Made by a program: the position numbers and the translations under genes
Part shown: in pieces, positions 24,327-57,020 of the stretch
Position numbering within the stretch: the stretch's first letter is position 1
How the letters are laid out: each line of letters starts with the position of its first letter
Notes under the pieces: generated by a model
Told to the model about the DNA's origin: nothing
The model's input: only the letters and a program-made list of their open reading frames with translations
Database searches by the model: none
NCBI GenBank assembly: GCA_045614145.1
Contig: JAZLCH010000010.1
Span: forward strand, 82,489-146,488
DNA: 64,000 bases
Direction of reading: 5' to 3'
DNA from: Candidatus Enterousia sp.
Lineage (GTDB): Bacteria > Pseudomonadota > Alphaproteobacteria > Rs-D84

Positions 24327-24387
24327 AAACAACCTCTTATGTTTCTAGAAAGATACCGCAAAAATATGAAAAATCAATAAAATATGT

Positions 24388-41154: not shown

Positions 41155-41360
41155 ATACCTTGCCAAGTTGTATATTAGCATGTTAGAATAGCCAAGTGTA
41201 TGAAAATGGGGCTATAATTAAGTGTTTGTATTGTCACTATTTTTAACAATTCGCATGGCGCTGATGGCTATCGTGGCGCAATTCCTTGGCATGGGCATGG
41301 ACGCCCCACGGGAACGTATTGTTACCATTACATACATCGCCAAAACAAAAGGATTACTAA

Positions 41361-43154: not shown

Positions 43155-43156
43155 TA

Positions 43157-43181
43157 AAATCCCCCAAATTCGGGGGATTTT
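43157..43181. terminator. Bidirectional terminator between rne and the phage-like cluster
   Basis: AAATCCCCC-AAATTC-GGGGGATTT hairpin. Confidence 0.75.
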
Positions 43182-43183
43182 CC

Positions 43184-43420
43184 TTATTTAATTACTGCGC
43201 CTTTGATAAGGGTCAGGTCTTCTTTGATATCGTCTATTTTTATTTGAATTTGCCCGATTCCGGTTTCCAGTATTGTTGTTCGGTTTTCCAGCGATGTTAT
43301 ACGTGTATCAAATGTTTCGTGTTCGGCAACAGATAAATCTTGGCGGGCCGCCCAATAAATCAGCCCACCAATGAAGACTATTAAAAACCAACTGTTGCGC
43401 AGAAATTCTATTGATTTCAT
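43184..43420 (-). CDS. Small TM + coiled-coil protein (holin/hemolysin-like)
   Basis: One TM followed by heptads (RITSLE...IDDIKEDL); ATGA-coupled. Confidence 0.6.
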   Translation of the reverse strand: MKSIEFLRNSWFLIVFIGGLIYWAARQDLSVAEHETFDTRITSLENRTTILETGIGQIQIKIDDIKEDLTLIKGAVIK

Positions 43421-43620
43421 GATTTATCCCCCCTGCCCCGCGCGACCAGTGATAATATCTGGCGCAGGAATGCGCGTTGGGCTTCGGCCCAGCGCAATTC
43501 ATTATCGCTTGCATTTGCCCCCAGGGTGCGTTCAATTGTTATCATGCGCAGGTAATCCAGCACACGCGCGCCGGCGGGCGTTGAAAAGCAACGGGCAAAA
43601 TCTGGTGCAATATCTGTCAT
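43417..43620 (-). CDS. Bbp19-like phage protein
   Basis: FARCFSTPAGARVLDYLR...LRWAEAQR..L.QI, in the usual position after a podoviral portal. Confidence 0.75.
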   Translation of the reverse strand: MTDIAPDFARCFSTPAGARVLDYLRMITIERTLGANASDNELRWAEAQRAFLRQILSLVARGRGDKS

Positions 43621-43623
43621 AGA

Positions 43624-44853
43624 TCACCCCCCCAGCACCGTTTCAGTTGCCGTCATCTGTGCAATCGGTGCAATGTATTTTAATTCGGCATCACCGTTTA
43701 ACTGGATTGGTGCAATCAATCCGCGACGCGCCAAAATCTGTAATCCGCGGTCACACAGTGGGCGAATAAATTCATGCAACAGGCGCCCATATGTCGCACC
43801 CAAGATGCGCATCATGTCGGCATTACGTGCCATGATTTCAGTTGCGGTCATTTCTTTATCAGACAACAGCCCCAGACGGTCTGCCAACAGCGCATGACGA
43901 ATGCGTTCGCGCAGGTCTTTTAATATCAACTGGGACACATCAAAATTCGCACCACTGGTCAATGGTGTCAGACCTGACGAGCCGACAGCCTTTGGTATAA
44001 TTGCGCCTGGGGTCAGGTTAATATTCTGCAGGTTTATAACACCATCATCATCCGCCATCCAAATTCCAGAAACCGCGATTGTCGCGTTTTTCAGGACCAG
44101 TTCAACGACCTTGTTCGCGGTTTTAATATCGGGCAACGCACGCAAGACCGGACCACGACCGTATAGTTCGCCACTGGATACAGACCAACGGAAAATAATA
44201 TATGGATTTGTTTCAAATGTACCCGTTGCAACAATATTATTTTCAATGTCGCCCCCAACATCTAACCAGGCGGTAAATTCAGTACCGACCAGACTTTGCA
44301 CCAATTTCAATGGCGTTTCTGGGTCGCGCTGTATCACATCACGCAGATTGGCAGGCGGGGTCCATGTTGGATATTTTTCCAGTACTTCGCGCGCTGGCAT
44401 TGACGTCGTGTGAAATACTGCATTTGGTAAAATCGCAATGTCTGCCATTGGAATTGCGGTAAATGTAAATGCAGACGATGCGCCGATTGGTGCCTCTGCC
44501 ATGAACAGACATGCTGTCCCCAATATAACCAGGTCCATATAACACTGGTGTATGGTTGTATAAAAATTTGAATCGTTCAGATTTGCACGCAGAACCGTGG
44601 TGGCATAATCTGCGTTTTGCGATAATTCACTTTCACCGACCAGTTGCAGCCACATTGATTCAGGCGGTGTCAACAATGTATAAATAGATGCCGCCAGGTT
44701 ATCTGCCGCGTCGGCTGCGGTTGCATCGTATAATGTCGCCGCATCGTCGTCTGCAGATGGCACGGTATAACGACGCGCCGCATCCCAACGGGCAATCCAA
44801 GGGCTGCGCATGTCCAAGGCACGTTTATACAGGCTTTGTAAATTCTTTTGCAT
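43624..44853 (-). CDS. Head-tail connector (portal), T7/BPP-1 type
   Basis: DATA..AA..LAA.I...LTPP..W, DL..LGTA, RW...GE.YGRGP...ALPDIK, MTATEI..R, LG..YGRL..E.I.PL. Confidence 0.92.
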   Translation of the reverse strand: MQKNLQSLYKRALDMRSPWIARWDAARRYTVPSADDDAATLYDATAADAADNLAASIYTLLTPPESMWLQLVGESELSQNADYATTVLRANLNDSNFYTTIHQCYMDLVILGTACLFMAEAPIGASSAFTFTAIPMADIAILPNAVFHTTSMPAREVLEKYPTWTPPANLRDVIQRDPETPLKLVQSLVGTEFTAWLDVGGDIENNIVATGTFETNPYIIFRWSVSSGELYGRGPVLRALPDIKTANKVVELVLKNATIAVSGIWMADDDGVINLQNINLTPGAIIPKAVGSSGLTPLTSGANFDVSQLILKDLRERIRHALLADRLGLLSDKEMTATEIMARNADMMRILGATYGRLLHEFIRPLCDRGLQILARRGLIAPIQLNGDAELKYIAPIAQMTATETVLGG

Positions 44854-44874
44854 TTATTTTGTCCTTTTGGTTAA

Positions 44875-45723
44875 TTAAACAGAAAAATTTGTATTTGCAG
44901 AAAATGTTTGTATTCCCCTGCCCAGTGCGCGCACAGGCATTGGGGTTTGGGCAATCGCACCCGCCACTGCGTCCAGACCGTCGTCGTGCGTACCATACGC
45001 CCCAACCGGCGACCAGCCCAGCATTTCAGACATCAGTGGCGTGACGCGTGTGCGTTCGTGCGCATACAAGCGGCCGGTGGATAACAGGGGTTCAATAGCA
45101 TCCAGGATTCGTTCATTTTTTGATTTACTGTTCTGGATGCGACAAACATGAATTCGCATACCGTGGCGGGTGGCACAATCGCGCATAATTTCAGGCAACC
45201 CACCACCAATTCCATTCGTTTCGATACAGATTGTATGCAAATTCCGTACACGCATAAATTCCAGCACCATATCACACTGGCGTGATAATGGGAACTGTTC
45301 ACTGTCAGATACAGTCAGATACAAAATATCGTGAACAAAGGCGCGTCGGTTTTTATCGTCACGATACAACAAGACACACGCGCTGCAGTCACGTTTGCGT
45401 TTACCACTGGACGGGTCCCAATACAATGTGACACCTGTTATCAGATGTTCGCCAATTTTCGCACTGCGCGGTTCAAATTCTGTATCGTAAAAATGCACCC
45501 CCCCGGGATCCAGGCGTGCGCGTTCGGGTGATACAAATTCCAGCATCATTTGCGACATAAAATGACGCGCGCCCACAATTTGACGCAAATTATCTATCTT
45601 CTCTGGCGGGAATAGTTCAGGCCAGGCAGGTTCACCGAACGCATTAACTATCGGAATTTTCAACAGTTTATAGCCCTGTAAAAAAGGCGTTGAAAAAGCA
45701 TTTTTTTCATATACCATTGGCAT
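44875..45723 (-). CDS. Terminase large subunit, C-terminal (nuclease) half
   Basis: PAWPE.F, F.SQMM, YWDPS, DCSA, IETNG, K..RI, HDDGLDA; start is ATG 45723 or 45717 (uncertain). Confidence 0.85.
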   Translation of the reverse strand: MPMVYEKNAFSTPFLQGYKLLKIPIVNAFGEPAWPELFPPEKIDNLRQIVGARHFMSQMMLEFVSPERARLDPGGVHFYDTEFEPRSAKIGEHLITGVTLYWDPSSGKRKRDCSACVLLYRDDKNRRAFVHDILYLTVSDSEQFPLSRQCDMVLEFMRVRNLHTICIETNGIGGGLPEIMRDCATRHGMRIHVCRIQNSKSKNERILDAIEPLLSTGRLYAHERTRVTPLMSEMLGWSPVGAYGTHDDGLDAVAGAIAQTPMPVRALGRGIQTFSANTNFSV

Positions 45724-45742
45724 AGAAGTAAAGGAATTTGAC

Positions 45743-47308
45743 ATGGATTTTACCCCCAAAACATTACCCACAAATCTGGAAGCCGAACAGGCCGTGTTGG
45801 CCGCAGTGTTGATGAACAATCGTGCGCTGGAACGCGTGGGCGAATTCCTGAACTACACACATTTTTCACATCCTGCGCACCAGGAAATCTATAAACTGGC
45901 CGAACGTCAATTTGCAGCCGGGATTCCATTTGATATTATTACTGCGAAAAACTATCTGGACCAACAAGGGGTCTTGGAATCGGTTGGTGGCGTTGACTAT
46001 CTGACACAGTTGTCTGGCGCAGGCGCAACAGTTGTTAATGTTGAACAATACGGGCGCATTGTTTATGAACACGCATTGCGCCGCGACCTGATTGCGCTGG
46101 GCCAGGAAATTACAGACAAGGCATTCATCGAAGACCTGGACAATCCGCCATCACGACAAATTGAAATCGCCGAACAAAAACTGTTTGATATGGCGACGAC
46201 AGGTTCATCTGAACGCGAAGTAACACCAATTGCCGCCGCGTTGCAGACCGCACTGAACGAAGCAGAAATCGCGTACAAGGCAGACGGCCAATTATCTGGC
46301 TTAACGACGGGACTGGATGCGCTGGACAAATCAATCAGTGGGCTGCACCATTCGGATTTGATTATTATTGCGGGCCGTCCTGCAATGGGTAAGACCACAT
46401 TGGCAATGAACATCGCGTTTAACGCGGCGAACGCGATTGCATACGGGCGCGCAAACCAGAATTACAAGGGCGCAGTCGTGTTTTTCAGTTTGGAAATGTC
46501 TGCATCCCAGTTGGCGGCGCGTGTGCTGTCTTCACAGTCCAAGGTTCCGGCCAGCGCGATGCGCGAAGGAAATTTAACCGACGAAGATTTCTTAAAGATG
46601 TCACAATATTCTGCCGCCATCGGCAAGGTGCCACTGTTCATTGACGACACGCCCGGTATGTCGGTGCCAATGATGCGTACTCGCGCACGCCGCCTGGCAC
46701 GCAAACACGGTGGAATTGCGCTGATTGTTATTGATTATCTGCAGTTGATGACATCACCCGGTGGCAAGCACAGCGACAACCGCGTTCAAGAAATTTCTGA
46801 AATTACCCGTGGTCTAAAAATGCTGGCCAAAGAATTGGATGTACCGGTGATTTCACTGTCACAGTTATCACGCAGTGTGGAATCGCGTGACGATAAACGA
46901 CCAATGCTGTCAGATTTGCGTGAATCTGGGTCTATTGAACAGGACGCGGACATTGTTATGTTTACATATCGTGAAGAATACTATCTGCAAAATCGCGATC
47001 CATCTGAACGCCTATCAAATACGACCAATAACGCAATGGTTGAATCATGGCAGAAACGATACGAACGCGCCAAGGGCAAGGCTGACATCATCATCGGCAA
47101 AAACCGTCACGGCCGTCCTGAAACAGTGCGCACCGCCTTCTTTGGCGATTACAGCTTGTTCGATAATCTTCCAGAATTTGAATCATATGACGACAATGAA
47201 TTCGCCCAACCTGCCCCGACTGTTTCTACGACCAATCTGAACAGCGATGCAGATTTTGCCCCAACCGCAATTAATCCTGATGACATTCCAGACGATATGC
47301 CATTGTAA
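45743..47308 (+). CDS. dnaB: Replicative DNA helicase
   Basis: NLEAEQAVL, AGRPAMGKT, FFSLEMS, IDYLQL, SQLSR, SDLRESGSIEQDAD, KNRHG. Confidence 0.98.
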   Translation: MDFTPKTLPTNLEAEQAVLAAVLMNNRALERVGEFLNYTHFSHPAHQEIYKLAERQFAAGIPFDIITAKNYLDQQGVLESVGGVDYLTQLSGAGATVVNVEQYGRIVYEHALRRDLIALGQEITDKAFIEDLDNPPSRQIEIAEQKLFDMATTGSSEREVTPIAAALQTALNEAEIAYKADGQLSGLTTGLDALDKSISGLHHSDLIIIAGRPAMGKTTLAMNIAFNAANAIAYGRANQNYKGAVVFFSLEMSASQLAARVLSSQSKVPASAMREGNLTDEDFLKMSQYSAAIGKVPLFIDDTPGMSVPMMRTRARRLARKHGGIALIVIDYLQLMTSPGGKHSDNRVQEISEITRGLKMLAKELDVPVISLSQLSRSVESRDDKRPMLSDLRESGSIEQDADIVMFTYREEYYLQNRDPSERLSNTTNNAMVESWQKRYERAKGKADIIIGKNRHGRPETVRTAFFGDYSLFDNLPEFESYDDNEFAQPAPTVSTTNLNSDADFAPTAINPDDIPDDMPL

Positions 47309-47323
47309 TTTATAATTATTTTC

Positions 47324-47370
47324 TTGCACCAGATGGATAAATTAACTATTATTTTGTCAAGAAATAGTTA
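47324..47370 (+). promoter_or_regulatory. Sigma70-like promoter with overlapping inverted repeat
   Basis: TTGCAC-N17-TATTAT (47324-47352); TAACTATT-N12-AATAGTTA (47343-47370). Confidence 0.55.
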
Positions 47371-47384
47371 TTTAGGAGTTGCAC

Positions 47385-48392
47385 ATGGCCCAAGAAGAAA
47401 TTATTTTTCCAAATAATATCCGTAACATACGTTTGGCAAACGGCATGAAAATGACAGAACTGGCACGCCAGACGGGTTTATCATTATCTGCTGTTTCAAA
47501 AATTGAAAAGGGTGTACGACGTCTAAATCAGAAACAACTGTTAAACATTTGCAATATTTTAGGTTGTAAATTGTCTGACATTTTCATCAAAGAATCTGAT
47601 GACGTTGCCAATCAATGGCAATCTGAAATCAAACGTCGCCTGAACGACAACGAAAACAGCGGCCTAAAGGTATTTGGCAGTGGTCTGCGCAAAATTCGCC
47701 AACAATCAGGCAAGACAATTGCCCAGGCGGCCAAAGAAGCCGGAATGACACTGTCTGTTTATCATAAAATCGAGGTCGGACAACGTGAAATATACAAAAA
47801 CGAAATCGAACCATTGGCAAAATCATTTGCGTTGGGCGCCGAAGATCTGTTTGACAAAATTGCAAACCTGTACAAATCCGGTGAATTAAATAAGCATATC
47901 AGCAAGGTAAAAGAACGTGTTAAATCCGTTTTAATACCTGGGAACCCATTGTCTGGCATCGATATGCACGGCAGCCTATATGGTGCAAAACTGTACGACA
48001 GCGCACGAAAAAAACTGGTTCCTGTATTTGGTACCCCATCTGGCAAATCAATCACATTTAAGAAATCAGACAAAACAATGATTGTTGCTCCAATGCCCCT
48101 AGAAGGTCGCGCTGGCATTTATGCGGTAATACCAAACACAAAACGTCTGGGCGGCATAATTCCTGAAAAATCATATATTTTTGCCGATGCGCTGACCCCT
48201 GCACAACCAGGCGACATGGCGGTATGCATTGATACAGATTTTGACATCCTGGACAACGACACAACCATCAATGCCCAGGTTGCCATCATCCGCCAGGATT
48301 CCAAAGGCAACATTTACGGCCACGTTTCAGGTCCTGACGAAAAAATAACCGCCCAAACAATGCACAAAGTTGTAATGATTGTTATGAAATAA
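47385..48392 (+). CDS. Tandem XRE-HTH regulator with degenerate S24/CI-like C-terminal domain
   Basis: Two Cro/CI HTHs (IRNIR..GM...LARQTG.S...SKIEKG; LRKIR..GKT...A...G.......IE.G); VPVFG...YAV...P.QPGD C-domain. Confidence 0.8.
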   Translation: MAQEEIIFPNNIRNIRLANGMKMTELARQTGLSLSAVSKIEKGVRRLNQKQLLNICNILGCKLSDIFIKESDDVANQWQSEIKRRLNDNENSGLKVFGSGLRKIRQQSGKTIAQAAKEAGMTLSVYHKIEVGQREIYKNEIEPLAKSFALGAEDLFDKIANLYKSGELNKHISKVKERVKSVLIPGNPLSGIDMHGSLYGAKLYDSARKKLVPVFGTPSGKSITFKKSDKTMIVAPMPLEGRAGIYAVIPNTKRLGGIIPEKSYIFADALTPAQPGDMAVCIDTDFDILDNDTTINAQVAIIRQDSKGNIYGHVSGPDEKITAQTMHKVVMIVMK

Positions 48393-48425
48393 ACCATTCA
48401 TTTCACCCCCAGGAGAGAGACTAAC

Positions 48426-49064
48426 ATGAAAGCAAAAATCAGAACAACCGCACAAAGATTATTAAACCTGTACCGCCAAGAACATGTAATTATTGGCGGT
48501 TGGGCGACCATAAATCCTATATTTATAAATGACGCAACCGACGACGTCATTTCAGAGCTGAAAGACATGCCAACAGGCCCATCCCTGATTCAGCATATTG
48601 AAAATCTGCGCAGCGGAAAAACCCCAATGGATTCAATTGCGCGTGAATTATTGCCATATGGTGGCATGATGACAGAATCAATTGCATCAATAAACCTGAC
48701 TGACGGCGAATTGCATGAACTGCAACACACCATTGACCAATTTACCCCTGACCAATCAGGACTAAACATGTTTCTGGCCACGCCAATTGTTCGTAAATTT
48801 GGCGAAGAATGGCCATCAGCTATTCGTTCTATAATTGACAATCATCCACAAATGCTGGCCAAATGGGATATAATTAAACAAACATATGACGCATACAGAC
48901 TGTGGGATTCTGCAAACGAAATTATTTCAAACCCTTTGTCTGAACGCGCCCGGGCACTGGTTCAATCTGACATGCCAGATTATGAAACATACCTGCCAAA
49001 ATTTGGGGTTCAGGGTATTGAATTACTGGAAAAACTGCGCACATTTGTCAGCACACTGAACTAA
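48426..49064 (+). CDS. Hypothetical protein
   Basis: 212-aa ORF, AGGAG RBS; its stop overlaps the stop of the TerL N-half. Confidence 0.8.
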   Translation: MKAKIRTTAQRLLNLYRQEHVIIGGWATINPIFINDATDDVISELKDMPTGPSLIQHIENLRSGKTPMDSIARELLPYGGMMTESIASINLTDGELHELQHTIDQFTPDQSGLNMFLATPIVRKFGEEWPSAIRSIIDNHPQMLAKWDIIKQTYDAYRLWDSANEIISNPLSERARALVQSDMPDYETYLPKFGVQGIELLEKLRTFVSTLN

Positions 49065-49666
49065 TCTTCATTCGTTGTACGATATATCGTATCATGTGCA
49101 TGCGGCGTACCAATATAAATCATTGTGCCGTTTGGCGACAAAATAAAGTCCAATTCACGCAGTCTTTCACGCAACATCTCGCGTTTTTGCGCAGTATTGG
49201 TTGTATTTGGCACTTCGACATCATCACAGATTATTAAATCCGCGCGCATTCCTGTAATATTACCATGAATACCCTGGCATATGACAGACGGTTCACGAAT
49301 TCCAATTGGCCGATTTATAGTTATGCGTCCGCACGCCCATTCTTTTTTATTTGTCGGGATTAAATCTGCACACCATGGGTGATTTTCCAATATATGACGA
49401 ACATGGGCAACCATACGCGATGCCAAACTGTTTTCTGCCGACAAAATTAATATACGTGTTTCAGGATACATATACAGCACACACGCAACAAAGATACCAA
49501 CAACCGTTGACTTACCAGAATGCCGAAACGCCATTAACAAACCACGATGCGGTGTTTTTTGCCAGACATCTACTAAAAAAGCCATAATTTTTTTATGATG
49601 TACCGGCGTTTTATATCCCAAGACCCGATTCCATTCATCCAAGAAACTATAATACCCCGTAATCAT
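49061..49666 (-). CDS. Terminase large subunit, N-terminal (ATPase) half
   Basis: LMAFRHSGKST (Walker A), ILILSA, ITGMRADLIICDDVE (Walker B), IYIGTPH (coupling motif), then stop. Confidence 0.9.
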   Translation of the reverse strand: MITGYYSFLDEWNRVLGYKTPVHHKKIMAFLVDVWQKTPHRGLLMAFRHSGKSTVVGIFVACVLYMYPETRILILSAENSLASRMVAHVRHILENHPWCADLIPTNKKEWACGRITINRPIGIREPSVICQGIHGNITGMRADLIICDDVEVPNTTNTAQKREMLRERLRELDFILSPNGTMIYIGTPHAHDTIYRTTNED

Positions 49667-50198
49667 CGGTATTTTCGTTTTCTGCAGCATCTGTGATATA
49701 CCCATAATCATTTATTAAATTTGGCAATGCGTTTTCCAAAACCGTTAACAAATTACGATACAGTCCCAAAACTGCCCCGCCCGACAATTTATCTTCTATG
49801 ACTGCCCGAGTATAATCAATCAGTGATTTAATATCATCATGACGATTCACCCATTCATTTATGTCAATATCAACTGACCGCAAATCTTGAAATGCCGCCA
49901 GCAAGAAATTAAAATCAGAATTCAAATCTTCCGGATCTATTTTTTTAGTTGGCTGATAATCAATTGTGCGCTTCAATGCGATTTGTCGAAAGATATCAAT
50001 TTTTGTATCTTCAATCGGCGCATCATCAAACACGACGTTACCACCCGAAAAATTTTCATTAGGCAACACCGAAAAAACATACCCACTGTCCCCAATCAAA
50101 CCGTTTATCGCGACACGAACATCTGCGACCTGGAAAAACGGGAAAGAGAATGCAAACTCTGTTGTTGCCCCATCTGCAACATAAGATATTTTATACAT
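49647..50198 (-). CDS. Short T7-type tail fibre N-terminal (adaptor) domain protein
   Basis: YVADG.T.EFAFSFPFF...DV.V, IFRQ....R..DY, LN.DF; only 183 aa. Confidence 0.78.
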   Translation of the reverse strand: MYKISYVADGATTEFAFSFPFFQVADVRVAINGLIGDSGYVFSVLPNENFSGGNVVFDDAPIEDTKIDIFRQIALKRTIDYQPTKKIDPEDLNSDFNFLLAAFQDLRSVDIDINEWVNRHDDIKSLIDYTRAVIEDKLSGGAVLGLYRNLLTVLENALPNLINDYGYITDAAENENTDDYGVL

Positions 50199-50217
50199 AA
50201 CACCGCCCCCATATAAA

Positions 50218-50565
50218 TCAACCCACAATTTCATCAAAACGCGCCAGCAACGATTTCAGTAAATTTGGTTTCTTTGCACGCGTTTTACTTAATTTATCCA
50301 GATTTTCGCGACGTTTCTTGTCATACGGCGCTGCCGTTTCTGCCTTCATACGTTTTAAGACAGCTCCTTCAGTCATGCCAGCACTTGACATACCTGACGC
50401 CCCATATTTTGCACGCTGACTGGCCAGAACTTTTTTTATCAGATTTGTTTTTTCTGCATCATCTTCAGCCATTTGTTTCAATATTTCCTGACGTTGTGTC
50501 TTGGCTTGTTTTTTATCTTCTTTATAATCCAACAGATCAGTTACATCAGATACTATTTGTCCCAT
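50218..50565 (-). CDS. Small internal-virion-like protein
   Basis: QRAKYGASG motif; position after tail tube B. Confidence 0.6.
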   Translation of the reverse strand: MGQIVSDVTDLLDYKEDKKQAKTQRQEILKQMAEDDAEKTNLIKKVLASQRAKYGASGMSSAGMTEGAVLKRMKAETAAPYDKKRRENLDKLSKTRAKKPNLLKSLLARFDEIVG

Positions 50566-50600
50566 ATCAATATTCCTTTGGTAAAAAAAATATATAAAAG

Positions 50601-52316
50601 TTAAACCGAATACCACCCATGCATTGTGACCGACAGAACCGTAACCGGTTCAGCATCTGTCCCATGAATTGTCCACAGTGGCTTTATGCAATCATGTGTT
50701 GTTCCCAACAGATTTATCGATACATCGCCACAATATCCAGAACTGCCATCAGAATAAATTTCATTTGGCAAATTTATACGATATGAATTTATATGAATCG
50801 ACTTTGTATTAATAACACGTGCGACTAATTTACGCATTTTCACACGCACTGCGCTGTGCCCTGACGATTGCAGTGGCAAACCGGACGCAACATATGAAAA
50901 ATTATATTGTCCACAATCAATCAATTCTGATTCTGAAAAACGTTCCAAGAACACACCATTATTACGATGTGTAACAACGTATGTCACGCCCGCTGACACG
51001 ACTACGGACAACACTTGCCCTGCGGTTTTATATTTTCCCCATGCGGACACGCCCAGTCCAGAATTATGATTTAACACCGAAATCGAACCATCATCACATA
51101 CAACATACAGACGACGGAATGACGAATTGTACGCCATATCAATTGGCCTATTAATCAGATGTCTAGAAAATGCACACAAGTCATTTGCGCTGTAATTTTC
51201 CCCCAGCGCATCCAACCCCAATTCACGAATGTCATCCCCTGATGCAGATACAAATACTGTCGTCCCTTCTATCTTTTGTGGTGGCAAGAAATATTCAGAA
51301 TACGATCCAACTGCTGTATGCTGCTTTACATCTACCGACGAAGGGGTCAAAGGCTTGCTTGAAATTGCCCATTCACCAACACTGGTCAGGATTTGTAAAT
51401 TATCACTGCTGACAATTGTACAAATTTGTTGACGCTTATGCGATGACAACGACACAAATATTGCTTCATCGTCCAAGCCTGTGCCTATATTAAAATTATT
51501 ATGTCGTCCAACCTGTGACATCCAAATACCATTTGGCCAATCACGTGAACCACCAAAGACCAAACGATCTTGATGAAAAGTGATACTGCATGGCCAACCG
51601 CGCCGCATTCCAAACGCCGATTCGCGCCAATCAGAAATACTGCTTGATGGAACCGAATACGTTCCATTTGTATGCGCAACGATTTGTGTTGGGCTGATAT
51701 ATTCATATATATACCATTGACGTTCTAATAAATACAACCGTCCCCCCACGTTATCAGGCGTCCAATAATCAGAACTGGCTGTAAATGTTGCAAAATTGTT
51801 CCCATTTGAATTTGTTGTCACAGCAATCGTTATGTCTGCAGAATCGTCAAATCGCACAAATGGCATATTCAACGTCATATCAAAATCATTACGCGCGAAT
51901 GCGAATTCAGATATTGTAAAATATTCCCCCGTATGCTGCAAAACCTGGGGCGGGTAATCAGGATGAACAAATATCATTATTCTGGACTGTTGGGCATATT
52001 GCACCTGCGCCAGGTCAGAATACGACCATGGCGTCCGCAGGTCTTGTATATGTTCTGTTCCATGAAAAACATGCATATGGTTTTCAGTTAATGCAATAAC
52101 ATACTCGGACGAATCTACCCCAGAAAACGATACCAAACGCGCCACATTTGGCAGTTTATAAACCGACTGCAACCCCATTCTGCGCGCCAATCCACCACCT
52201 GGCAACACATCCATATTTTCTAGTTTACACAGACCATTAATATTATCGTGTGCATAGAATTCCGGGGCAACTTCACCATTTGCAAAAGAGTTTTGTGTTT
52301 TTATAAAGTTTGCCAT
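50601..52316 (-). CDS. Tail tubular protein B (nozzle)-like
   Basis: QNSFANGEVAP, GG..RR.G, VHPDYPP, GWP....FHQDRL.FGG, GLDDEAI, T..GEW. Confidence 0.85.
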   Translation of the reverse strand: MANFIKTQNSFANGEVAPEFYAHDNINGLCKLENMDVLPGGGLARRMGLQSVYKLPNVARLVSFSGVDSSEYVIALTENHMHVFHGTEHIQDLRTPWSYSDLAQVQYAQQSRIMIFVHPDYPPQVLQHTGEYFTISEFAFARNDFDMTLNMPFVRFDDSADITIAVTTNSNGNNFATFTASSDYWTPDNVGGRLYLLERQWYIYEYISPTQIVAHTNGTYSVPSSSISDWRESAFGMRRGWPCSITFHQDRLVFGGSRDWPNGIWMSQVGRHNNFNIGTGLDDEAIFVSLSSHKRQQICTIVSSDNLQILTSVGEWAISSKPLTPSSVDVKQHTAVGSYSEYFLPPQKIEGTTVFVSASGDDIRELGLDALGENYSANDLCAFSRHLINRPIDMAYNSSFRRLYVVCDDGSISVLNHNSGLGVSAWGKYKTAGQVLSVVVSAGVTYVVTHRNNGVFLERFSESELIDCGQYNFSYVASGLPLQSSGHSAVRVKMRKLVARVINTKSIHINSYRINLPNEIYSDGSSGYCGDVSINLLGTTHDCIKPLWTIHGTDAEPVTVLSVTMHGWYSV

Positions 52317-52328
52317 TACCACCCCCAA

Positions 52329-52847
52329 CTAATATCGTGCAGAAATTAAAGAAAATTCTTTGATTCCATCATTTACCCCAGACGATGCATCTAAAAATTT
52401 TGCTGTCTGTAATTCTGTTTCATACAATGCGACCAACATACGAAACACGGTCTGGTCACCCAGCAACGGGACACAAAATTCCATTGCTAAACGTGTTGCA
52501 GCCAACGATATAAAATACGCTGGAAAATTATCAGGTGCAGTACGAACCAGCGCAGTAATTTTCACCGTTTCCGCATCCGAGAATATTCGATTTCCAACAA
52601 TACGTCCCGACGTATTCAAGACGCGCAACACATTTGATGGCAATAAAAAATTACCGTCTGTATTACGTACCAATTCGATATCATATGTTGCAAATCGCCA
52701 TGGATAGATTGCAACTAATGCATCAATGACAGGCTCAAAAAGTGTACGCGACAATTTTGCTGCCGCGCTGTCATCTGTCAAAGACTGAATTGGTTCTTCG
52801 CCCAATTTTAATAGCGCCATGGAACACAAGTCTATTTTAGTAAGCAT
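52329..52847 (-). CDS. Tail tubular protein A (gatekeeper)-like
   Basis: IDLCSMALLKLGEEPI.SL, YPWRFA, LP...LRV, FPAYF. Confidence 0.85.
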   Translation of the reverse strand: MLTKIDLCSMALLKLGEEPIQSLTDDSAAAKLSRTLFEPVIDALVAIYPWRFATYDIELVRNTDGNFLLPSNVLRVLNTSGRIVGNRIFSDAETVKITALVRTAPDNFPAYFISLAATRLAMEFCVPLLGDQTVFRMLVALYETELQTAKFLDASSGVNDGIKEFSLISARY

Positions 52848-52864
52848 TTTTGTTCCCTTTGTGT

Positions 52865-52898
52865 AAAAAAAAATGGCCGGCAAAATACAATACCGGCC
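52865..52898 (-). terminator. Intrinsic terminator between capsid and tail genes
   Basis: GGCCGG-N12-CCGGCC followed on the minus strand by a U-tract. Confidence 0.55.
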
Positions 52899-52916
52899 TG
52901 TATTAATACGTTATAT

Positions 52917-53150
52917 CTATGCCAATGCAATCGTTGTGACATTCAATTCTGTCACATTAATTTTCTTAATTGCGGTATTATCAGATGCATTAATAATGAT
53001 AATATCGCCAATGTTCATCAATGTTTTTACATTGTTAAAATAACCATTTACCGTTATTGTTGACAATGTTTCAGACGCGCTGCTGTAATGCCACAATGTA
53101 AAACCGTTTGCATATGCAATGACGGATAAATTTTTATTCTGAAAAGCCAT
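52917..53150 (-). CDS. Small conserved phage-type protein after the capsid gene
   Basis: LSVIAYANGFTLWHY...GYFN...GDIII; AAAGGA RBS. Confidence 0.75.
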   Translation of the reverse strand: MAFQNKNLSVIAYANGFTLWHYSSASETLSTITVNGYFNNVKTLMNIGDIIIINASDNTAIKKINVTELNVTTIALA

Positions 53151-53194
53151 ATTTTTTCCTTTTGATTAAAAATGTTTATATTGTGAACTTAAAT

Positions 53195-54019
53195 TTATGC
53201 ATTTACGCCATCTGAACACTTAACACGAACAATACCATCACCATCGATCAGCACTGCCCCCTGTGACATACTGTTGCTGATAAAGTGCGCTGCGCGTTCG
53301 CCATGCCATGAAATATCCGATTTAACTTCTTGACCACACGCATGCCCTATGCTGGACGCATGATAGATAAAGCAATCACGATTCTTATCAGATACCGGCA
53401 GACCATTATGCAACACCCATGTTATACCCAACCATTTGCGTGCTTCAAAACCGTTTACCAATGGCGAATCGGTTACATAATCCGCGGACACAAATTCATC
53501 CATTGCCAACAGTTCGTTCCACTGATGCACACCAACAACCGCAAAGCGACGACCATCATCTGGGACATCATTTGTATTCAATACTTCCAGTGCATTCAAC
53601 ACCAATTCCTTGGTCAGGCCGGTTGTATAATCACCGACATTTGCTGTTGCGGTATTCATTGCAGAAATAATTAATTCATCTGTTTTACGCCCCAGCGCAT
53701 ATGCACCAGCAGATGCAACGACACGACGTTCATCAATATTTGTTTTTAATTCATCCAAACTATCGACCCAATCACCCGCATAATAATCCATCAGCAAACA
53801 TTCCACTGGTTCATGGTTTAAATTCATTACTGGAACAATACCATGACGTGATTTTGTGCTGGCTGTGCCACGCCCAACCTTTTGGAACGTGGTCGATGCA
53901 CCAATCACACCCGATTTACTGCGAACCGTCGAACGCAGTTTTGTCCCCATCTGCTGATACGCCAAATGAACATCAGCTTCAAATTGTTTTACAAATACAT
54001 TGTCTATGGAAACAGACAT
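53195..54019 (-). CDS. Major capsid protein (T7/BPP-1-like)
   Basis: FVKQFEADVHLAYQQMGTKLR.TVR, D.LDELK, A.ALGRKTD..II, DVPDDG.R, WLG..W. Confidence 0.9.
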   Translation of the reverse strand: MSVSIDNVFVKQFEADVHLAYQQMGTKLRSTVRSKSGVIGASTTFQKVGRGTASTKSRHGIVPVMNLNHEPVECLLMDYYAGDWVDSLDELKTNIDERRVVASAGAYALGRKTDELIISAMNTATANVGDYTTGLTKELVLNALEVLNTNDVPDDGRRFAVVGVHQWNELLAMDEFVSADYVTDSPLVNGFEARKWLGITWVLHNGLPVSDKNRDCFIYHASSIGHACGQEVKSDISWHGERAAHFISNSMSQGAVLIDGDGIVRVKCSDGVNA

Positions 54020-54512: not shown

Positions 54513-55169
54513 CTATGAGTATAATTTTTTAAATCCGTTTTCAATTTTTCGAATATATTCTGCATCACCATCGCGCCAATATTTTGGATCACGCATCATA
54601 CGACGCAAATCAGAATCAGATAAATTTTTTTCAGACGCCCCATCTATCTGCACATCAGGTTCCATTGATTGCATCATCTTATAAATACTTTGAATTCCCT
54701 GGGGTGTAGTACACAATTCGTCATATGCATCACGTGGCAAGAATCGTTCACCAAACGCATTTATTGCCCGCAATGCATCGCTCATTTTTTCATCACCGCC
54801 GAAAAAATTTTTCAATTCATTAATTGCACTGTCTTCATCACGCACAGAAAATAAATCTGAAATTATCGGGGATAGAAATTCATTTGCGATATCGTAAATT
54901 TTTTCTACCTGATTACAGGTTAATCCAATTTGTAAAAATTTTTCACGCAAATTTTCATCATCATACAATTCATTTATTGGATATTCAGACGCATTCACCG
55001 GCACCCCAATTGCACGATTAAATTTTTGACGTGTCGCCTCATCAGAATCAGATGTTGGAACACTGATCATGCCACCTATTTTTTTCTCTAATTCAGAATA
55101 AGATTTCATCAGTGCCGATGCGTTTAATGTTCCATCGTCCTTTAAAAATTTTTCTGGGATATTATCCAT
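54513..55169 (-). CDS. Capsid assembly scaffolding protein
   Basis: IPEKF....L.KSYSELEKK N-terminus; LR.MMRDPKYW.......IENGFKKLY C-terminus. Confidence 0.85.
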   Translation of the reverse strand: MDNIPEKFLKDDGTLNASALMKSYSELEKKIGGMISVPTSDSDEATRQKFNRAIGVPVNASEYPINELYDDENLREKFLQIGLTCNQVEKIYDIANEFLSPIISDLFSVRDEDSAINELKNFFGGDEKMSDALRAINAFGERFLPRDAYDELCTTPQGIQSIYKMMQSMEPDVQIDGASEKNLSDSDLRRMMRDPKYWRDGDAEYIRKIENGFKKLYS

Positions 55170-55170
55170 T

Positions 55171-55368
55171 TTATTTTCCTTTGTCTTCATTTGATTTGCG
55201 CAGGAAATAAATTCCTGCAAATGTACAAACAGATTGCAACATAACAAACAAATCTGAATCACCGGCCAAATACGCCCCAATTGCAGATAAAATGCCAGTT
55301 GCAGAAATTATATATGTTCGATATCCCGCCAGATATCCACCACGTACAATATTCTTCATTGCTATCAT
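55171..55368 (-). CDS. Small two-TM holin-like protein
   Basis: GYRTYI + two hydrophobic segments + FLRK; adjacent to the hydrolase. Confidence 0.6.
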   Translation of the reverse strand: MIAMKNIVRGGYLAGYRTYIISATGILSAIGAYLAGDSDLFVMLQSVCTFAGIYFLRKSNEDKGK

Positions 55369-55372: not shown

Positions 55373-55783
55373 TTATAAATAAAACAGCATACCGTCTATA
55401 TCGGCGATATATCCGCGCGCACGCGCCCAATCAGGCATAACATCAGCATGATGAAATCGCGACGCACCATAACAGGCATCGTTTAATCCACCACACAGCA
55501 TACGCTTTGCTACGCGCAAACACATTTGATACCCACGGTTCATTGGCTGCACATACATGCGTTCATGACGACAAGATTTTTCAGACAACGCATTGAAAAT
55601 ATTTTCATCTGATATCAGATCTGAAAAACATCTGCCAGATACATCTGCCAAATTTTTTATCATTGATGTTAATGCCTCGACCCCACGCAAAGATTGCGCA
55701 CCACTTTCCGCATACACAATCCGTGCAATTCTATATGCCACCCCTGCGGACATGTCCGTGTTACGTATCAGTTCAAGATTCAT
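55373..55783 (-). CDS. Cell wall hydrolase (SleB/Hydrolase_2-like)
   Basis: ARIVYAES, GA..FH...V.PDWA, IDG.LFY. Confidence 0.78.
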   Translation of the reverse strand: MNLELIRNTDMSAGVAYRIARIVYAESGAQSLRGVEALTSMIKNLADVSGRCFSDLISDENIFNALSEKSCRHERMYVQPMNRGYQMCLRVAKRMLCGGLNDACYGASRFHHADVMPDWARARGYIADIDGMLFYL

Positions 55784-55800
55784 GAATTCCCCCCTGGGTA

Positions 55801-55913
55801 TAAAAAATCCCCATGTGAAATACATGGGGGGTAAAAAAAATCCACACGCAAATGTGGATACAATCTGTCATGTTTATGTCTCACATACTAGCATATTTTC
55901 ATAAAAAAGTCAA
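55801..55913 (-). promoter_or_regulatory. Promoter of the phage-like operon followed by two tandem terminators
   Basis: TTGACT (55913-55908)-N17-TAGTAT (55890-55885) with extended TG; hairpins ATCCACA/TGTGGAT (55840-55859) and CCCCATGT/ACATGGGG (55809-55829), each with a U-tract, before the first ATG. Confidence 0.65.
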
Positions 55914-55948: not shown

Positions 55949-56614
55949 TCACACACTTATTTCATCACCATAGACCAACAAATATCGTGTATCGCGGCGC
56001 AAGACCAACGCCCCATTTTCATTTATTCCGACCAATGTCGCAACCTGACCCTGATATCGCACAGGACAATTCAGACAGGCCGCCAATTCCAACCATCTTT
56101 CCCGTACTGCGCGAAAATCTGCACAACGCCATTTGTCCAAATTTCGCATTAAACGGTTCAACAATGCCTCTAATGGTACATCCGAATAATTATCCATCTT
56201 GGTCGTCTTATATCGATCGACCGTTGGATTAGATTTTACATTTATCCCAATCCCAACAATAACGAATCGCCCAGAATATTCAATCAAGGCCCCCGAAATC
56301 TTTTTTCCATCCACCAATATATCATTTGGCCACTTAATCGTTGGATGAATTCCAAACGAAGCAATTGTTTCTGCCACCGCGACCGCCACCGCATAGGCCA
56401 TACGCGCATCACGTTCCGGGCAATCATAAATAAAACTGACATACAAATTTCCATGATGAGACACCCACGGTCGGCGAAAACGTCCACGACCTGCCGACTG
56501 GGCCAAGGCCCAAATCGCCGTATGGTCACGCCCCCCACCCTGTGCAATCAGTTCATGCGCATAATCCTGGGTACTGGGGATTTTATCAAAAGAAACCAGT
56601 TTATAATTTGCCAA
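55949..56614 (-). CDS. birA: Biotin protein ligase (no HTH)
   Basis: STQD, QSAGRGR..R.W, IKWPNDILVDGKKISG.L.E, GIGIN. Confidence 0.95.
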   Translation of the reverse strand: MANYKLVSFDKIPSTQDYAHELIAQGGGRDHTAIWALAQSAGRGRFRRPWVSHHGNLYVSFIYDCPERDARMAYAVAVAVAETIASFGIHPTIKWPNDILVDGKKISGALIEYSGRFVIVGIGINVKSNPTVDRYKTTKMDNYSDVPLEALLNRLMRNLDKWRCADFRAVRERWLELAACLNCPVRYQGQVATLVGINENGALVLRRDTRYLLVYGDEISV

Positions 56615-57020
56615 GTTTATATACCCCCTCTATATTTTTTATAAAATCACGACCAAATCGCTGGCGCAACTGATAGATTGCTGTATCAATCGCATGCGAC
56701 GTTGTATCGGGCATTACCCCCAGCGCAGTTCGCAAATTTGAATATCTCATTCCGCCTGTTTTATGCAACAATACAATAATTTGCGTCTGCAAATACGGTA
56801 AAATAACACACTGTCCAAAGATATCAAATAACACATGACTATTATCTGCCACTGCCAGAATACATGCTTTCAACTGCATTGGAGTAACAATATCAGTAAT
56901 TTTCAAATCATCAAAATTCACTTCTGTAATTGCCGGGGCATCCGTAACAGTCGCCCCAAAATCCGCCAAGATTTGTCGCCATATTTTGTCACTTGTAAAA
57001 ATACGAACGCCATTCAGCAT
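56601..57020 (-). CDS. OmpR-type winged-helix protein with degenerate N-terminus
   Basis: SHAIDTAIYQLRQR...I.N..G.YKL. Confidence 0.7.
   Translation of the reverse strand: MLNGVRIFTSDKIWRQILADFGATVTDAPAITEVNFDDLKITDIVTPMQLKACILAVADNSHVLFDIFGQCVILPYLQTQIIVLLHKTGGMRYSNLRTALGVMPDTTSHAIDTAIYQLRQRFGRDFIKNIEGVYKLGKL

What the first reader, a model, noticed from the sequence alone, without database searches (positions are those of the whole stretch)
44875..49666. Large terminase split into two intact genes that bracket the essential dnaB block
Seen in sequence: ORF 49061-49666 has all TerL ATPase motifs (FRHSGKST, IICDDVE, GTPH) and stops shortly after GTPH. ORF 44875-~45723, on the same strand 3.3 kb downstream, carries the rest (PFLQGY...AWPE...WDPS...HDDGLDA). 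Neither half has an internal stop or frameshift. Between them, on the opposite strand, lie dnaB, a tandem-HTH regulator and a hypothetical gene. The packing is extremely tight: stop codons overlap at 49061-49064, and only ~20 bp separate the divergent starts at 45723/45743. Established: TerL is normally one polypeptide with an N-terminal ATPase and a C-terminal RNase H-like nuclease. Inference: this is a maintained two-subunit terminase rather than decay, and physical interleaving with dnaB makes the virion operon hard to delete, as expected for a domesticated system.
Basis: partly seen in the sequence, partly recalled or inferred. Interest (0 to 1): 0.92.

Follow-up and report, generated by a model that had tools for sequence, protein, structure and literature searches.

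The report
Two-piece terminase in gut symbionts
A tiny-genome gut bacterium keeps a virus-like particle gene set whose DNA-packaging motor has been encoded as two separate, intact proteins since the origin of its whole order, and in this lineage the cell's only replicative helicase gene now lies between the two pieces.

Summary
terL-N (49061-49666/49711, -) and terL-C (44875-45744, -) are intact, cognate halves of one T7-type large terminase. dnaB (the genome's only DnaB), a 2xHTH regulator and a hypothetical gene lie between them on the other strand.

The split is not decay. The short N-half was found in 233 of 251 genomes of the order, always as a 200-233 aa frame among the rows listed. Both halves show dN/dS of about 0.1-0.17, all catalytic residues are invariant, and the split forms fall on one side of a branch, nested among single-chain (479-580 aa) relatives from other Alphaproteobacteria.

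The cut lies inside the ATPase core, not at the ATPase/nuclease boundary. It falls in the loop after motif III (GTPH), so the C-half supplies the last core strand, the lid helices and the nuclease. A complex model pairs that strand with the Walker A strand (score 0.88, best control 0.00; may reflect memory of single-chain structures).

The dnaB block is a later insertion, confined to this family. Other families have adjacent halves, or ftsZ and portal between them.

Best reading: an obligate two-chain terminase of a domesticated, GTA-like, T7-type particle. The "hard to delete" idea is untested and not needed.

The parts
49061..49711 (-). terL-N. It holds the ASCE ATPase strands up to motif III: Walker A FRHSGKST, Walker B LIICDDVE, GTPH. 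The likely start is M16 at 49666, giving 201 aa.
44875..45744 (-). terL-C. It holds the last ATPase core strand (LLKIPIV), the lid helices (FMSQMML) and the RNase H-like nuclease (WDPS, ETNG, DDGLDA). It is 289 aa from the ATG at 45744; an alternative ATG lies at 45723.
45742..45745 (.). CATG holding both divergent start codons (terL-C and dnaB). The dnaB Shine-Dalgarno AAGGA at 45731-45735 lies inside terL-C codons.
   Evidence: the same start-on-start geometry in 9 of 9 genus loci
45743..47308 (+). dnaB replicative helicase, the only DnaB_C match above cut-off in the 0.90 Mb genome. It is a host core gene.
47379..48392 (+). Regulator with two HTH_3 domains and an unassigned C-terminal domain. 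It is single-copy in 41 of 41 genomes of the order sample, so it is a host gene and not specific to the cluster.
48426..49064 (+). Hypothetical 212-aa protein with no family match. It is conserved in the genus (46-75% identity) and lies next to the HTH gene in one other family.
49061..49064 (.). CTAA: the overlapping convergent stop codons of hyp212 (TAA) and terL-N (TAG).
43624..44853 (-). Portal (T7 gp8-type head-to-tail connector).
43417..43620 (-). Bbp19-like small phage protein.
43184..43420 (-). 78-aa protein with no family match. By my reading of the sequence it has a membrane helix and a coiled coil. It is conserved at the end of the cluster.
49647..50237 (-). Tail-fibre N-terminal-domain-like protein.
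50218..50616 (-). 132-aa conserved cluster protein with no family match.
50601..52328 (-). Tail tubular protein B-like (phrog_376).
52329..52883 (-). Tail tubular protein A-like (phrog_394; Pfam Tube, weak).
53195..54019 (-). Major capsid protein (Phage_capsid_2). It is 65-73% identical across the families of the order.
54513..55280 (-). Scaffold (T7 capsid assembly protein family).
55373..55825 (-). Cell-wall hydrolase-like protein (weak matches).
55949..56614 (-). Biotin/lipoate protein ligase family gene. It is a host-type gene sitting inside the cluster.
56601..57020 (-). 139-aa conserved cluster protein with no family match.
57910..62988 (-). 1692-aa protein with no family match. That it is an internal virion or ejection protein is a guess from its size and position only.

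Best explanation
SHOWN. The large terminase of a chromosomal T7-type head-tail-packaging gene cluster is encoded as two separate intact genes. The cut lies in the variable loop that follows motif III (GTPH) of the ATPase. The same cut is present throughout the order (probably Rs-D84; the genus is probably Ca. Enterousia, judged from names that sources give close homologues). Both halves are under purifying selection, and the split forms fall on one side of a branch, nested among single-chain relatives.

INFERRED (mechanism). TerL-N (about 201 aa) holds the Walker A strand and the other core strands up to the motif III strand. It cannot form a complete ASCE ATPase on its own. TerL-C (about 289 aa) adds the missing edge strand next to the Walker A strand, the lid helices and the RNase H-like nuclease. 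The two chains would associate non-covalently into a heterodimeric protomer that works like ordinary TerL: it docks on the portal, pumps DNA and cuts it.

INFERRED (role). The motor serves a domesticated, vertically inherited, podovirus-type particle, most likely a gene-transfer-agent-like device. This would explain why about 20 kb is kept in genomes of about 0.9 Mb.

INFERRED (history). Once the two halves were separate genes, the boundary between them became an ordinary intergenic site. In this family a block of host core genes (dnaB, a universal 2xHTH regulator and a hypothetical gene) was placed there. In another family ftsZ and portal lie there. No selective 'anti-deletion' role is needed.
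For: Cognate halves: both hit phrog_38 at consecutive positions. Aligned to seven full-length relatives of 477-505 aa, N plus C cover the whole protein with no gap or overlap.

Distribution:
- Strong N-half matches in 37 of 41 relatives, in frames of 202-245 aa.
- C-half matches in 36 of 41.
- Order-wide profile search: 233 of 251 genomes, 201 of 213 high-quality, 24 of 26 genera. All 150 listed frames are 200-233 aa.
- The N ORF is intact in 20 of 20 loci and stops 2-20 aa after TIY. It ends at the same place in five other-family loci.

Selection (NG86): terL-N median omega 0.097 (17 usable of 21 pairs), terL-C 0.167 (27 of 36). For comparison dnaB is 0.094, portal 0.073 and capsid 0.070. The closest pair gives terL-N 0.077 and terL-C 0.040.

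Catalytic residues are invariant in 20 N and 19 C sequences.

One origin: the split forms need one change on the N tree (19 rows, SH-aLRT 93) and on the C tree (20 rows, SH-aLRT 68). In both they are nested in full-length forms. 36 of 41 IMG/VR relatives at 43-55% identity have one frame of 479-580 aa. Full-length forms occur in Terasakiella, Micavibrio, Rhodospirillaceae and Azospirillaceae records.

Position in the fold: an AlphaFold2 model of a full-length relative (pLDDT 89.4, pTM 0.80) has a strand at 177-187 ending in GTP, a loop at 188-214, a strand at 215-219 and helices at 236-255, with the nuclease sheet from about 273. The cut maps to the loop at 188-214.

Complex model: ipSAE 0.88, best of 3 controls 0.00. 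That mark was reached by 58 of 80 solved complexes and 2 of 110 mismatched pairs. The runs agree in at least 92% of contacts and the partner's pLDDT is at least 77. C-half residues 17-32 touch N-half residues 41-50.

No RNA or protein splicing signal: Rfam finds no intron. Spacers carry stops in all three frames. There are no extra residues for an intein.

The insertion came later: dnaB lies between the halves only in this family.
Against: - There is no expression, proteomic or particle evidence. No RNA run was listed and no contig bridged the junctions (these are tried steps, not evidence).
- The complex model may pass from memory of single-chain TerL structures.
- dS is saturated (about 1.5-2) for most pairs, so omega rests mainly on conservation and on the closest pair.
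- The C-half tree supports one origin only weakly (SH-aLRT 68).
- No small terminase was identified.
- One 99%-complete genome of another family (G029) has the N-half followed directly by portal and no detectable C-half. Either the C-half can be lost or diverge beyond recognition, or it is unassembled there.
- 12 of 213 high-quality genomes lack the N-half, so the system is dispensable in some lineages.
- GTA function is inferred from gene content and inheritance only.
Confidence: 0.65

Rival explanations
1. Decaying prophage: terL was broken by an insertion and the halves are pseudogene remnants awaiting loss.
For: TerL is normally one chain. The cluster has host genes scattered through it. 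Some genomes of the order lack it.
Against: The same cut with intact frames is seen across 24 of 26 genera. Omega is 0.10 and 0.17, like dnaB and portal. Catalytic residues are invariant. There are no internal stops in 20 of 20 N ORFs. These genomes are about 0.9 Mb and are reported to lack pseudogene accumulation (PMC12306168, passages read).
Confidence: 0.03
2. The two halves are rejoined covalently, by RNA splicing (group I/II intron or trans-splicing), protein trans-splicing (split intein), or ribosomal bypass.
For: Introns and inteins are known in phage terminase genes (recalled; an intein in a large terminase homologue is mentioned in PMC2147016). Genes cut in two and rejoined by split inteins exist (cyanobacterial dnaE, recalled).
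Against: Rfam finds no intron in five spacers or in window 43000-50500. N plus C equal the full-length protein with no surplus residues for intein halves. Spacers of 174-379 nt have stops in every frame. Here 3.3 kb of opposite-strand genes intervene.
Confidence: 0.03
3. Sub-functionalisation: the halves no longer form a terminase. For example, TerL-C acts as a free nuclease and TerL-N has another role, and the particle, if made, does not package DNA (a protein-delivery or bacteriocin-like device).
For: G029 keeps the N-half without a detectable C-half. No TerS was found. The halves sit in different recombination segments between two close species.
Against: The N-half lacks the core strand that the model places against the Walker A strand, so a stand-alone fold is unlikely. 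The interface segments (PFLxGY..LKIP, SQMML) are conserved. Both halves co-occur in 36 of the 37 genomes with an N-half in the first sample. Portal, scaffold and capsid are all retained with them.
Confidence: 0.1
4. One reading: placing essential genes (dnaB here, ftsZ elsewhere) between or beside the particle genes is selected because it protects the cluster from deletion.
For: Essential genes lie inside the cluster in at least two independent ways: dnaB in this family, and ftsZ between terL-N and portal or directly beside portal in three other families. The packing is extremely tight.
Against: The split predates both arrangements. One genus of this family still has adjacent halves (L054). 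dnaB orientation varies among genera, as expected for neutral rearrangement. This genus shows no ftsZ at all yet keeps the cluster. 12 of 213 high-quality genomes lack the N-half. Deleting the flanking particle genes would not touch dnaB.
Confidence: 0.1
5. Assembly artefact (a chimeric contig).
For: The genome is a draft of 11 contigs. No laid contig bridged the junctions (a tried step only).
Against: The same order is found in 23 of 24 other species on one contig, in 13 IMG/VR contigs, and with base-exact overlapping starts in 9 of 9 loci.
Confidence: 0.01

Closest known systems
T7-type large terminase (T7 gp19, PDB 4bij/4bil; PhiV-1 TerL, PDB 8dgc)
   Same: The family is the same: a profile of full-length relatives plus the two halves hits 8dgc_E at 3e-40 and 4bij_A at 1.4e-36. 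The model of a full-length relative matches 8dgc_E best (Foldseek E 1.3e-29). The Walker A, Walker B, motif III and nuclease acidic residues are the same.
   Different: Those proteins are single chains of 476-586 residues as deposited. Here there are two chains, cut after motif III at about T7-type residue 217, and the two genes are 3.3 kb apart.
Single-chain sister clusters in other Alphaproteobacteria (Terasakiella pusilla, Micavibrio spp., Rhodospirillaceae and Azospirillaceae MAGs; IMG/VR 'provirus' records)
   Same: TerL is 43-58% identical to the query used, with capsid, tail tube A/B, fibre, portal and lysozyme-like genes nearby. Five of five records checked lack DNA_pol_A and Phage_integrase.
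   Different: terL is one frame of 479-580 aa in 36 of 41 loci. Whether these are prophages or domesticated elements was not examined.
RcGTA-type gene transfer agents of Alphaproteobacteria
   Same: Both are chromosomal, apparently vertically inherited head-tail-terminase clusters with no replication or integration genes in the cluster, kept under purifying selection.
   Different: RcGTA is HK97/siphovirus-like with a one-chain TerL, and its DNA transfer has been shown experimentally (recalled; background in PMC5721377 and PMC12946183). Here the architecture is T7/podovirus-like, TerL is two-chain, and no function has been shown.
FpGTA of Faecalibacterium prausnitzii
   Same: It is a gut bacterium's GTA-like element with inferred podovirus-like morphology (PMC12946183, passages read).
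   Different: It belongs to a different phylum. No sequence comparison was made here. The paper's passages seen do not mention a split terminase.
Genes cut in two and reunited by split inteins (cyanobacterial dnaE) or by mRNA splicing (herpesvirus terminase pUL15); both recalled
   Same: One enzyme is encoded in two separated pieces.
   Different: Those are rejoined covalently. Here no intein residues or intron RNA are present.

Membership tests
Large terminase, T7/T4-type (Terminase_6N + RNase H-like nuclease; phrog_38) | ASCE ATPase motifs: Walker A, Walker B with catalytic Glu, motif III | tested here: met
   G51 K52 S53, D148 D149 E151 and G186 T187 P188 are invariant in 20 sequences. Terminase_6N scores 27.9 bits against a cut-off of 22.
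Large terminase, T7/T4-type (Terminase_6N + RNase H-like nuclease; phrog_38) | RNase H-like nuclease with conserved acidic residues | tested here: met
   D110 (WDP), E175 (ETNG) and D254/D255/D258 (DDGLD) are invariant in 19 sequences. phrog_38 positions 483-704 match at E 1.4e-35. The Pfam nuclease families score just under cut-off: 25.4 against 27, and 21.8 against 22.6.
Large terminase, T7/T4-type (Terminase_6N + RNase H-like nuclease; phrog_38) | ATPase and nuclease on one polypeptide | tested here: not met
   There are two ORFs in every genome of the order examined. It works like the family, and the sequences belong to it, but the architecture differs.
Gene transfer agent (GTA) | Phage-like structural and packaging genes fixed in the chromosome and inherited with the host lineage | tested here: met
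   233 of 251 genomes and 24 of 26 genera. Gene order and flanks (rne, mprF) are conserved in the genus. The TerL trees group sequences by host family codes. No formal reconciliation with the species tree was done.
Gene transfer agent (GTA) | No replication, integration or lysogeny module belonging to the element | tested here: inconclusive
   None was seen among the cluster ORFs scanned. Several ORFs have no family match. A tyrosine recombinase lies 22 kb away at 20087-21355.
Gene transfer agent (GTA) | Particles package random host DNA and deliver it to other cells | not testable with these tools
   This needs capsid-protected DNA sequencing, electron microscopy and transfer assays.
Split-intein or intron-interrupted gene | Intein blocks flanking the cut, or a group I/II intron RNA between the exons | tested here: not met
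   There are no surplus residues and no Rfam intron.
Functional prophage | Integrase and att sites, replication and regulatory modules, patchy distribution among close relatives | tested here: not met
   The distribution is order-wide and syntenic rather than patchy. No integrase or polymerase was found in the cluster. att sites were not searched for.

The most novel reading that the evidence does not exclude
An entire order of ultra-reduced gut Alphaproteobacteria carries a vertically inherited, T7/podovirus-type gene transfer agent. Its packaging motor is an obligate two-chain TerL, cut inside the ASCE core. Because the halves sit in separate transcription units, wired next to the cell's own replication and division genes (dnaB here, ftsZ elsewhere), the split acts as an AND-gate that ties particle production to the cell cycle. 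The related single-chain clusters in Micavibrio, Terasakiella and other Alphaproteobacteria would then be a second, unrecognised GTA lineage beside the RcGTA type.
Probability: 0.25. Interest if true: 0.88.

Novelty: new variant of a known kind. Interest (0 to 1): 0.74.

Why it matters
Large terminases are textbook single-chain motors. A natural version cut within the ATPase core and kept for the lifetime of a bacterial order would show that the motor tolerates fragment complementation. It would also provide a ready-made system for studying how the ATPase core, lid and nuclease communicate.

Keeping about 20 kb of virion genes in genomes of about 0.9 Mb that have lost most biosynthesis argues for a real cellular function. 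The most plausible is DNA exchange, which could offset mutational decay in partner-dependent, small-population symbionts.

If particles are confirmed, this would be a T7-type GTA in Alphaproteobacteria. No such element came up in my searches, and a 2026 paper calls a Faecalibacterium element the first podovirus-like GTA (PMC12946183).

The finding also flags a wider family of related chromosomal clusters in free-living and predatory Alphaproteobacteria.

Tried and rejected
- Promoter and terminator scan of 44500-50500: 16 promoter-like sites against 13.2 +/- 4.1 in shuffles, and 9 terminator-like sites against 7.3 +/- 3.1. This says nothing about how terL-C is transcribed.
- Sequencing runs: no RNA holder was listed. 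The best DNA holders share at most 0.27 of the sampled words.
- Laying contigs of 4 runs: only short pieces, mostly from related strains. None of the listed pieces bridges 45743 or 49061, so this gives neither independent support nor contradiction for the assembly.
- Protein atlas for the 212-aa ORF: no usable hit.
- Phage records whose TerL best matched the C-half (Piluca, vB_EcoM_APEC, TPWB-05) all have one full-length terL, so no split phage counterpart was found there. Short PHROG families phrog_4758 and phrog_5573 match the N and C halves. They may represent split or truncated terL genes in phages, but I could not list their members.
- From memory only: actinobacteriophage annotators use separate 'ATPase domain' and 'nuclease domain' terminase labels. 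If that is right, terL splits at the domain boundary are known in phages. My search for those phrases found nothing.
- Literature:
  - 'Rs-D84' + 'gene transfer agent': 0 papers.
  - 'Enterousia': 16 papers. The one I opened (PMC12306168, find mode) has 0 occurrences of phage, terminase or gene transfer agent.
  - 'split terminase' and related terms gave nothing relevant.
  - 'gene transfer agent' + 'tail tubular protein' + 'Alphaproteobacteria': 1 paper, seen as a listing only.
  - 'Micavibrio' + 'prophage' + 'terminase': 4 papers hold the terms, 3 listed, seen as a listing only.
  - Supplementary files of papers were not consulted (closed). Gene tables of PMC12306168 might list these phage-like genes.
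- G029: the C-half was not found with the protein or with phrog_38. The C-half profile A3 was not tried on it.
- Rows dropped:
  - dN/dS left out alignment pieces that held a stop. For terL-N these were L038 and L041, whose pieces began upstream of the true ATG; their ORFs are intact.
  - The N tree left out L032, L038 and L041 of 22 split loci. The C tree left out L035 and L070, which had no C-half in the locus.
  - In one search my frame walk failed for L104, and 4 loci ran off their contig.
  - Two of the 150 rows listed carry one stop inside the match. For G003 it lies upstream of the ATG. For G019 the ORF from its ATG is intact at 198 aa (L014).

Full report
WHAT IS THERE

The window is part of contig 10 of a 0.90 Mb, 11-contig, 96.7%-complete genome. 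Sources name close homologues of the N-half 'Alphaproteobacteria bacterium' and 'Candidatus Enterousia avicola'. Enterousia belongs to the uncultured order Rs-D84, gut bacteria with genomes under about 1 Mb (PMC12306168, passages read). The tool's group codes cannot be matched to names, so equating 'the order' searched here with Rs-D84 is my inference.

On the minus strand from 62988 down to 43184 lies a T7-type virion gene set, in this order:
- a 1692-aa protein and small ORFs
- a lipoate/biotin-ligase-family gene
- a cell-wall-hydrolase-like gene
- the T7-type scaffold
- the capsid protein (Phage_capsid_2)
- tail tubular proteins A and B
- a 132-aa ORF
- a fibre N-domain protein
- terL-N
- [three plus-strand genes]
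- terL-C
- the portal (Head-tail_con, E 7.6e-83)
- a Bbp19-like protein
- a 78-aa ORF

Enolase lies on one flank, and RNase E/G and an MprF-like gene on the other.

- terL-N (49061-49711, 216 aa) matches phrog_38 positions 272-461 (E 1e-40). terL-C (44875-45819 maximal frame) matches positions 483-704 (E 1.4e-35).
- Between them lie dnaB (DnaB and DnaB_C, E 9e-100), a protein with two HTH_3 domains, and a 212-aa ORF with no match.
- dnaB is the only DnaB_C match above cut-off in the genome.
- The convergent stop codons share CTAA at 49061-49064.
- At the other end, an ATG at 45744 on the minus strand and the dnaB ATG at 45743 share CATG. In all 9 genus loci I checked, a terL-C start codon sits exactly one base from the dnaB start (coordinates). 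In several species it is the only start upstream of the conserved PFLxGY segment. The divergent genes therefore probably overlap rather than being about 20 bp apart.
- Relatives' terL-N ORFs begin at the equivalent of M16 (49666).

THE HALVES ARE ONE PROTEIN CUT CLEANLY

A whole-library search with the N-half finds relatives at 47-53% identity that are 477-530 aa long, with the N-half matching their first 200 or so residues. Aligned with seven of them, N ends at ...GTPHxxDTIYxxx and C begins a few residues before PFLxGY. Together they cover the whole protein, without loss or surplus. The junction falls in a stretch that varies in length among the full-length proteins.

This rules out an intein. 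Rfam finds no intron in the spacers of five other-family loci or in window 43000-50500, and those spacers have stops in all frames.

WHERE THE CUT LIES IN THE FOLD

An AlphaFold2 model of a full-length relative (P0126; 30-row alignment; mean pLDDT 89.4, pTM 0.80) has these elements:
- the Walker A strand at 42-47
- the Walker B strand at 143-149
- a strand at 177-187 that ends in G187-T188-P189
- a loop at 188-214
- a further strand at 215-219
- helices at 236-255
- the nuclease sheet from about 273

The model matches T7-type (8dgc_E, E 1.3e-29), T4, D6E, HK97 and Sf6 terminases. Isolated P74-26 ATPase-domain structures of about 250 residues align over 281 columns.

The cut maps to the loop at 188-214. 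The C-half therefore carries the last ATPase core strand and the lid helices as well as the nuclease.

A complex prediction of the two window proteins, with their own alignments, gives ipSAE 0.88 (runs 0.89, 0.88, 0.88) against 0.00 for the best of three controls. That mark was reached by 58 of 80 solved complexes and 2 of 110 mismatched pairs. The runs share at least 92% of contacts, and the partner's pLDDT is at least 77. C-half residues 17-32 (…LLKIPIV) lie against N-half residues 41-50 (the strand before Walker A), and residues 64-74 (SQMML…) also touch. Because single-chain TerL structures are solved, this pass may come from memory. It shows that the two chains can rebuild the known fold, not that they bind in the cell.

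THE SPLIT IS OLD, UNIVERSAL IN THE ORDER AND SELECTED

Distribution in 41 genomes (own, 24 of the genus, 16 of five other families):
- Strong N-half matches (E at most 3.5e-54) occur in 37, always in open frames of 202-245 aa. One further genome has only a weak hit in a 603-aa frame.
- C-half matches occur in 36.

With a profile of 20 N-halves over 251 genomes drawn from the order, 233 match at E at most 1e-10. That is 201 of 213 high-quality genomes and 24 of 26 genera. All 150 rows listed have frames of 200-233 aa.

In 20 of 20 fetched loci the N ORF is intact and stops 2-20 residues after TIY. In five loci of three other families it stops at the same place.

Walker A, Walker B, motif III and the three nuclease acidic positions are invariant.

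Pairwise NG86 dN/dS among the window and eight genus loci gives these medians:

| Gene | Median omega | Usable pairs |
|---|---|---|
| terL-N | 0.097 | 17 of 21 |
| terL-C | 0.167 | 27 of 36 |
| dnaB | 0.094 | |
| portal | 0.073 | |
| capsid | 0.070 | |

dS is mostly saturated. The closest pair gives terL-N dN 0.090 / dS 1.17, and terL-C dN 0.009 / dS 0.234.

ONE ORIGIN, FROM SINGLE-CHAIN ANCESTORS

IMG/VR holds 41 relatives at 43-55% identity. In 36 of them one frame of 479-580 aa holds both parts, 4 run off the contig, and for one my frame walk failed.

Named genome records with full-length forms, and with capsid, tail and portal genes nearby, include Terasakiella pusilla, Micavibrio spp., and Rhodospirillaceae and Azospirillaceae MAGs.

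On maximum-likelihood trees rooted with more distant T7-like contigs:
- The split forms need one change on the N-part tree (19 split, 48 full, 6 outgroup rows; SH-aLRT 93).
- They need one change on the C-part tree (20, 44, 6; SH-aLRT 68, which is weak).
- In both trees they are nested within the full-length forms.

The halves are therefore cognate, and the split most simply arose once, at or near the base of the order.

THE dnaB BLOCK CAME LATER

Within the genus, dnaB lies between the halves in 23 of 24 other species on a single contig, and in the 24th across a contig break.

In 13 IMG/VR contigs of the same type, terL-N is followed by hyp212 on the other strand in 13. HTH follows in 12, dnaB in 11 and terL-C in 8; the rest end at the contig edge.

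In the other families dnaB is on another contig or more than 75 kb away, and the halves are arranged differently:
- They are adjacent, separated by 174-379 bp, in L025-L029.
- In one family they are ordered terL-N, 3-7 kb, portal, terL-C, with ftsZ directly upstream of portal.
- In another family the order is terL-C, hypothetical gene, amidase, tRNA, ftsZ, hypothetical gene, portal.

Within the window's own family:
- dnaB abuts terL-C divergently in three more genera.
- dnaB sits on the same strand in two genera.
- One genus still has adjacent halves.
- Three genera have something else upstream of terL-C.

The HTH regulator is single-copy in 41 of 41 genomes, including those without the cluster. 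Outside this genus it is near the cluster in only two genomes. The inserted block is therefore made of host core genes.

WHAT THE SYSTEM PROBABLY IS

- The cluster takes up about 2% of a genome that has shed most biosynthesis.
- It is present in 93% of the sampled genomes of the order.
- It is syntenic within the genus.
- It has host genes interspersed (ligase-family gene, dnaB block, ftsZ, tRNA).
- No integrase or polymerase is visible in it.
- Its capsid protein is 65-73% identical across families, against 40-56% for DnaB.

This is the profile of a domesticated element rather than a prophage. Retention of a catalytically intact terminase and portal points to DNA packaging, hence a GTA-like particle. 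None of this has been shown experimentally. No paper in the searched library links Rs-D84 or Enterousia with phage-like genes.

Essential genes are embedded in the cluster in two independent ways (dnaB, ftsZ), which is suggestive. Against it:
- The split predates both arrangements.
- dnaB orientation and presence vary.
- This genus shows no Tubulin/FtsZ match in 25 of 25 genomes yet keeps the cluster.
- Some genomes of the order lack the N-half.

Rearrangement at what had become an ordinary gene boundary is sufficient.

LIMITS

- There are no expression or protein data.
- No small terminase was identified.
- One near-complete genome (G029) has the N-half but no detectable C-half.
- Supplementary files of papers were closed.

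Noticed in passing
whole genome G000 and 24 other genomes of the genus: No Tubulin/FtsZ family match in 25 of 25 genomes of this genus (FtsZ_C is also absent in G000), while 14 of 16 genomes of the other families have one. The genus may divide without FtsZ.
   Followed up: partly
L030 11384-13096, L031 9139-10821, L032 8598-10349, L033 9764-11347, L026 5019-6539, L028 17033-19036: In three other families ftsZ lies directly upstream of the portal gene on the same strand. In one family this places it between terL-N and terL-C.
   Followed up: partly
window 41200-53999 vs L036 (G016): Nucleotide identity to a sister species is 91-97% from rne to dnaB (41.2-47.2 kb). It drops to 66-84% from the HTH gene through terL-N and the tail genes. 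dS differs about five-fold between terL-C (0.23) and terL-N (1.17). A recombination boundary therefore lies inside the inserted block, and the two TerL halves have different histories.
   Followed up: partly
window 53195-54019 and orthologues: The capsid protein is 65-73% identical between families of the order, more conserved than DnaB (40-56%). Its dN/dS of 0.070 is the lowest in the cluster.
   Followed up: no
L071-L111, L137-L144: A family of related chromosomal T7-type clusters with single-chain TerL exists in Terasakiella, Micavibrio, Rhodospirillaceae and Azospirillaceae records. Five IMG/VR records are classed provirus, and 0 of 5 have DNA_pol_A or Phage_integrase. These may be further domesticated elements.
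   Followed up: partly
L035 (G029:C64) 9240-11316: In a 99%-complete genome of another family, terL-N is followed directly by portal. No C-half was found with the protein or with phrog_38.
   Followed up: partly
window 55949-56614: A biotin/lipoate protein ligase family gene sits inside the virion cluster and is conserved there in the genus.
   Followed up: no
window 10000-32000: A stretch of low G+C (0.34-0.40, against 0.41-0.50 elsewhere). It holds a tyrosine recombinase (20087-21355), an ABC-F protein (22902-24332), asparagine-synthase-like and MurA-like genes, and ends near tRNA-Arg (31064-31140). It may be an island.
   Followed up: no
G010:C28:5861-7395: In one 82%-complete genome of the genus, dnaB is matched as two overlapping pieces in different frames. 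This could be a frameshift or a sequencing error.
   Followed up: no
window 47379-48392: The 2xHTH protein has a C-terminal domain of about 170 residues with no family match. It is single-copy in 41 of 41 genomes of the order, so it is a universal regulator of unknown role.
   Followed up: partly
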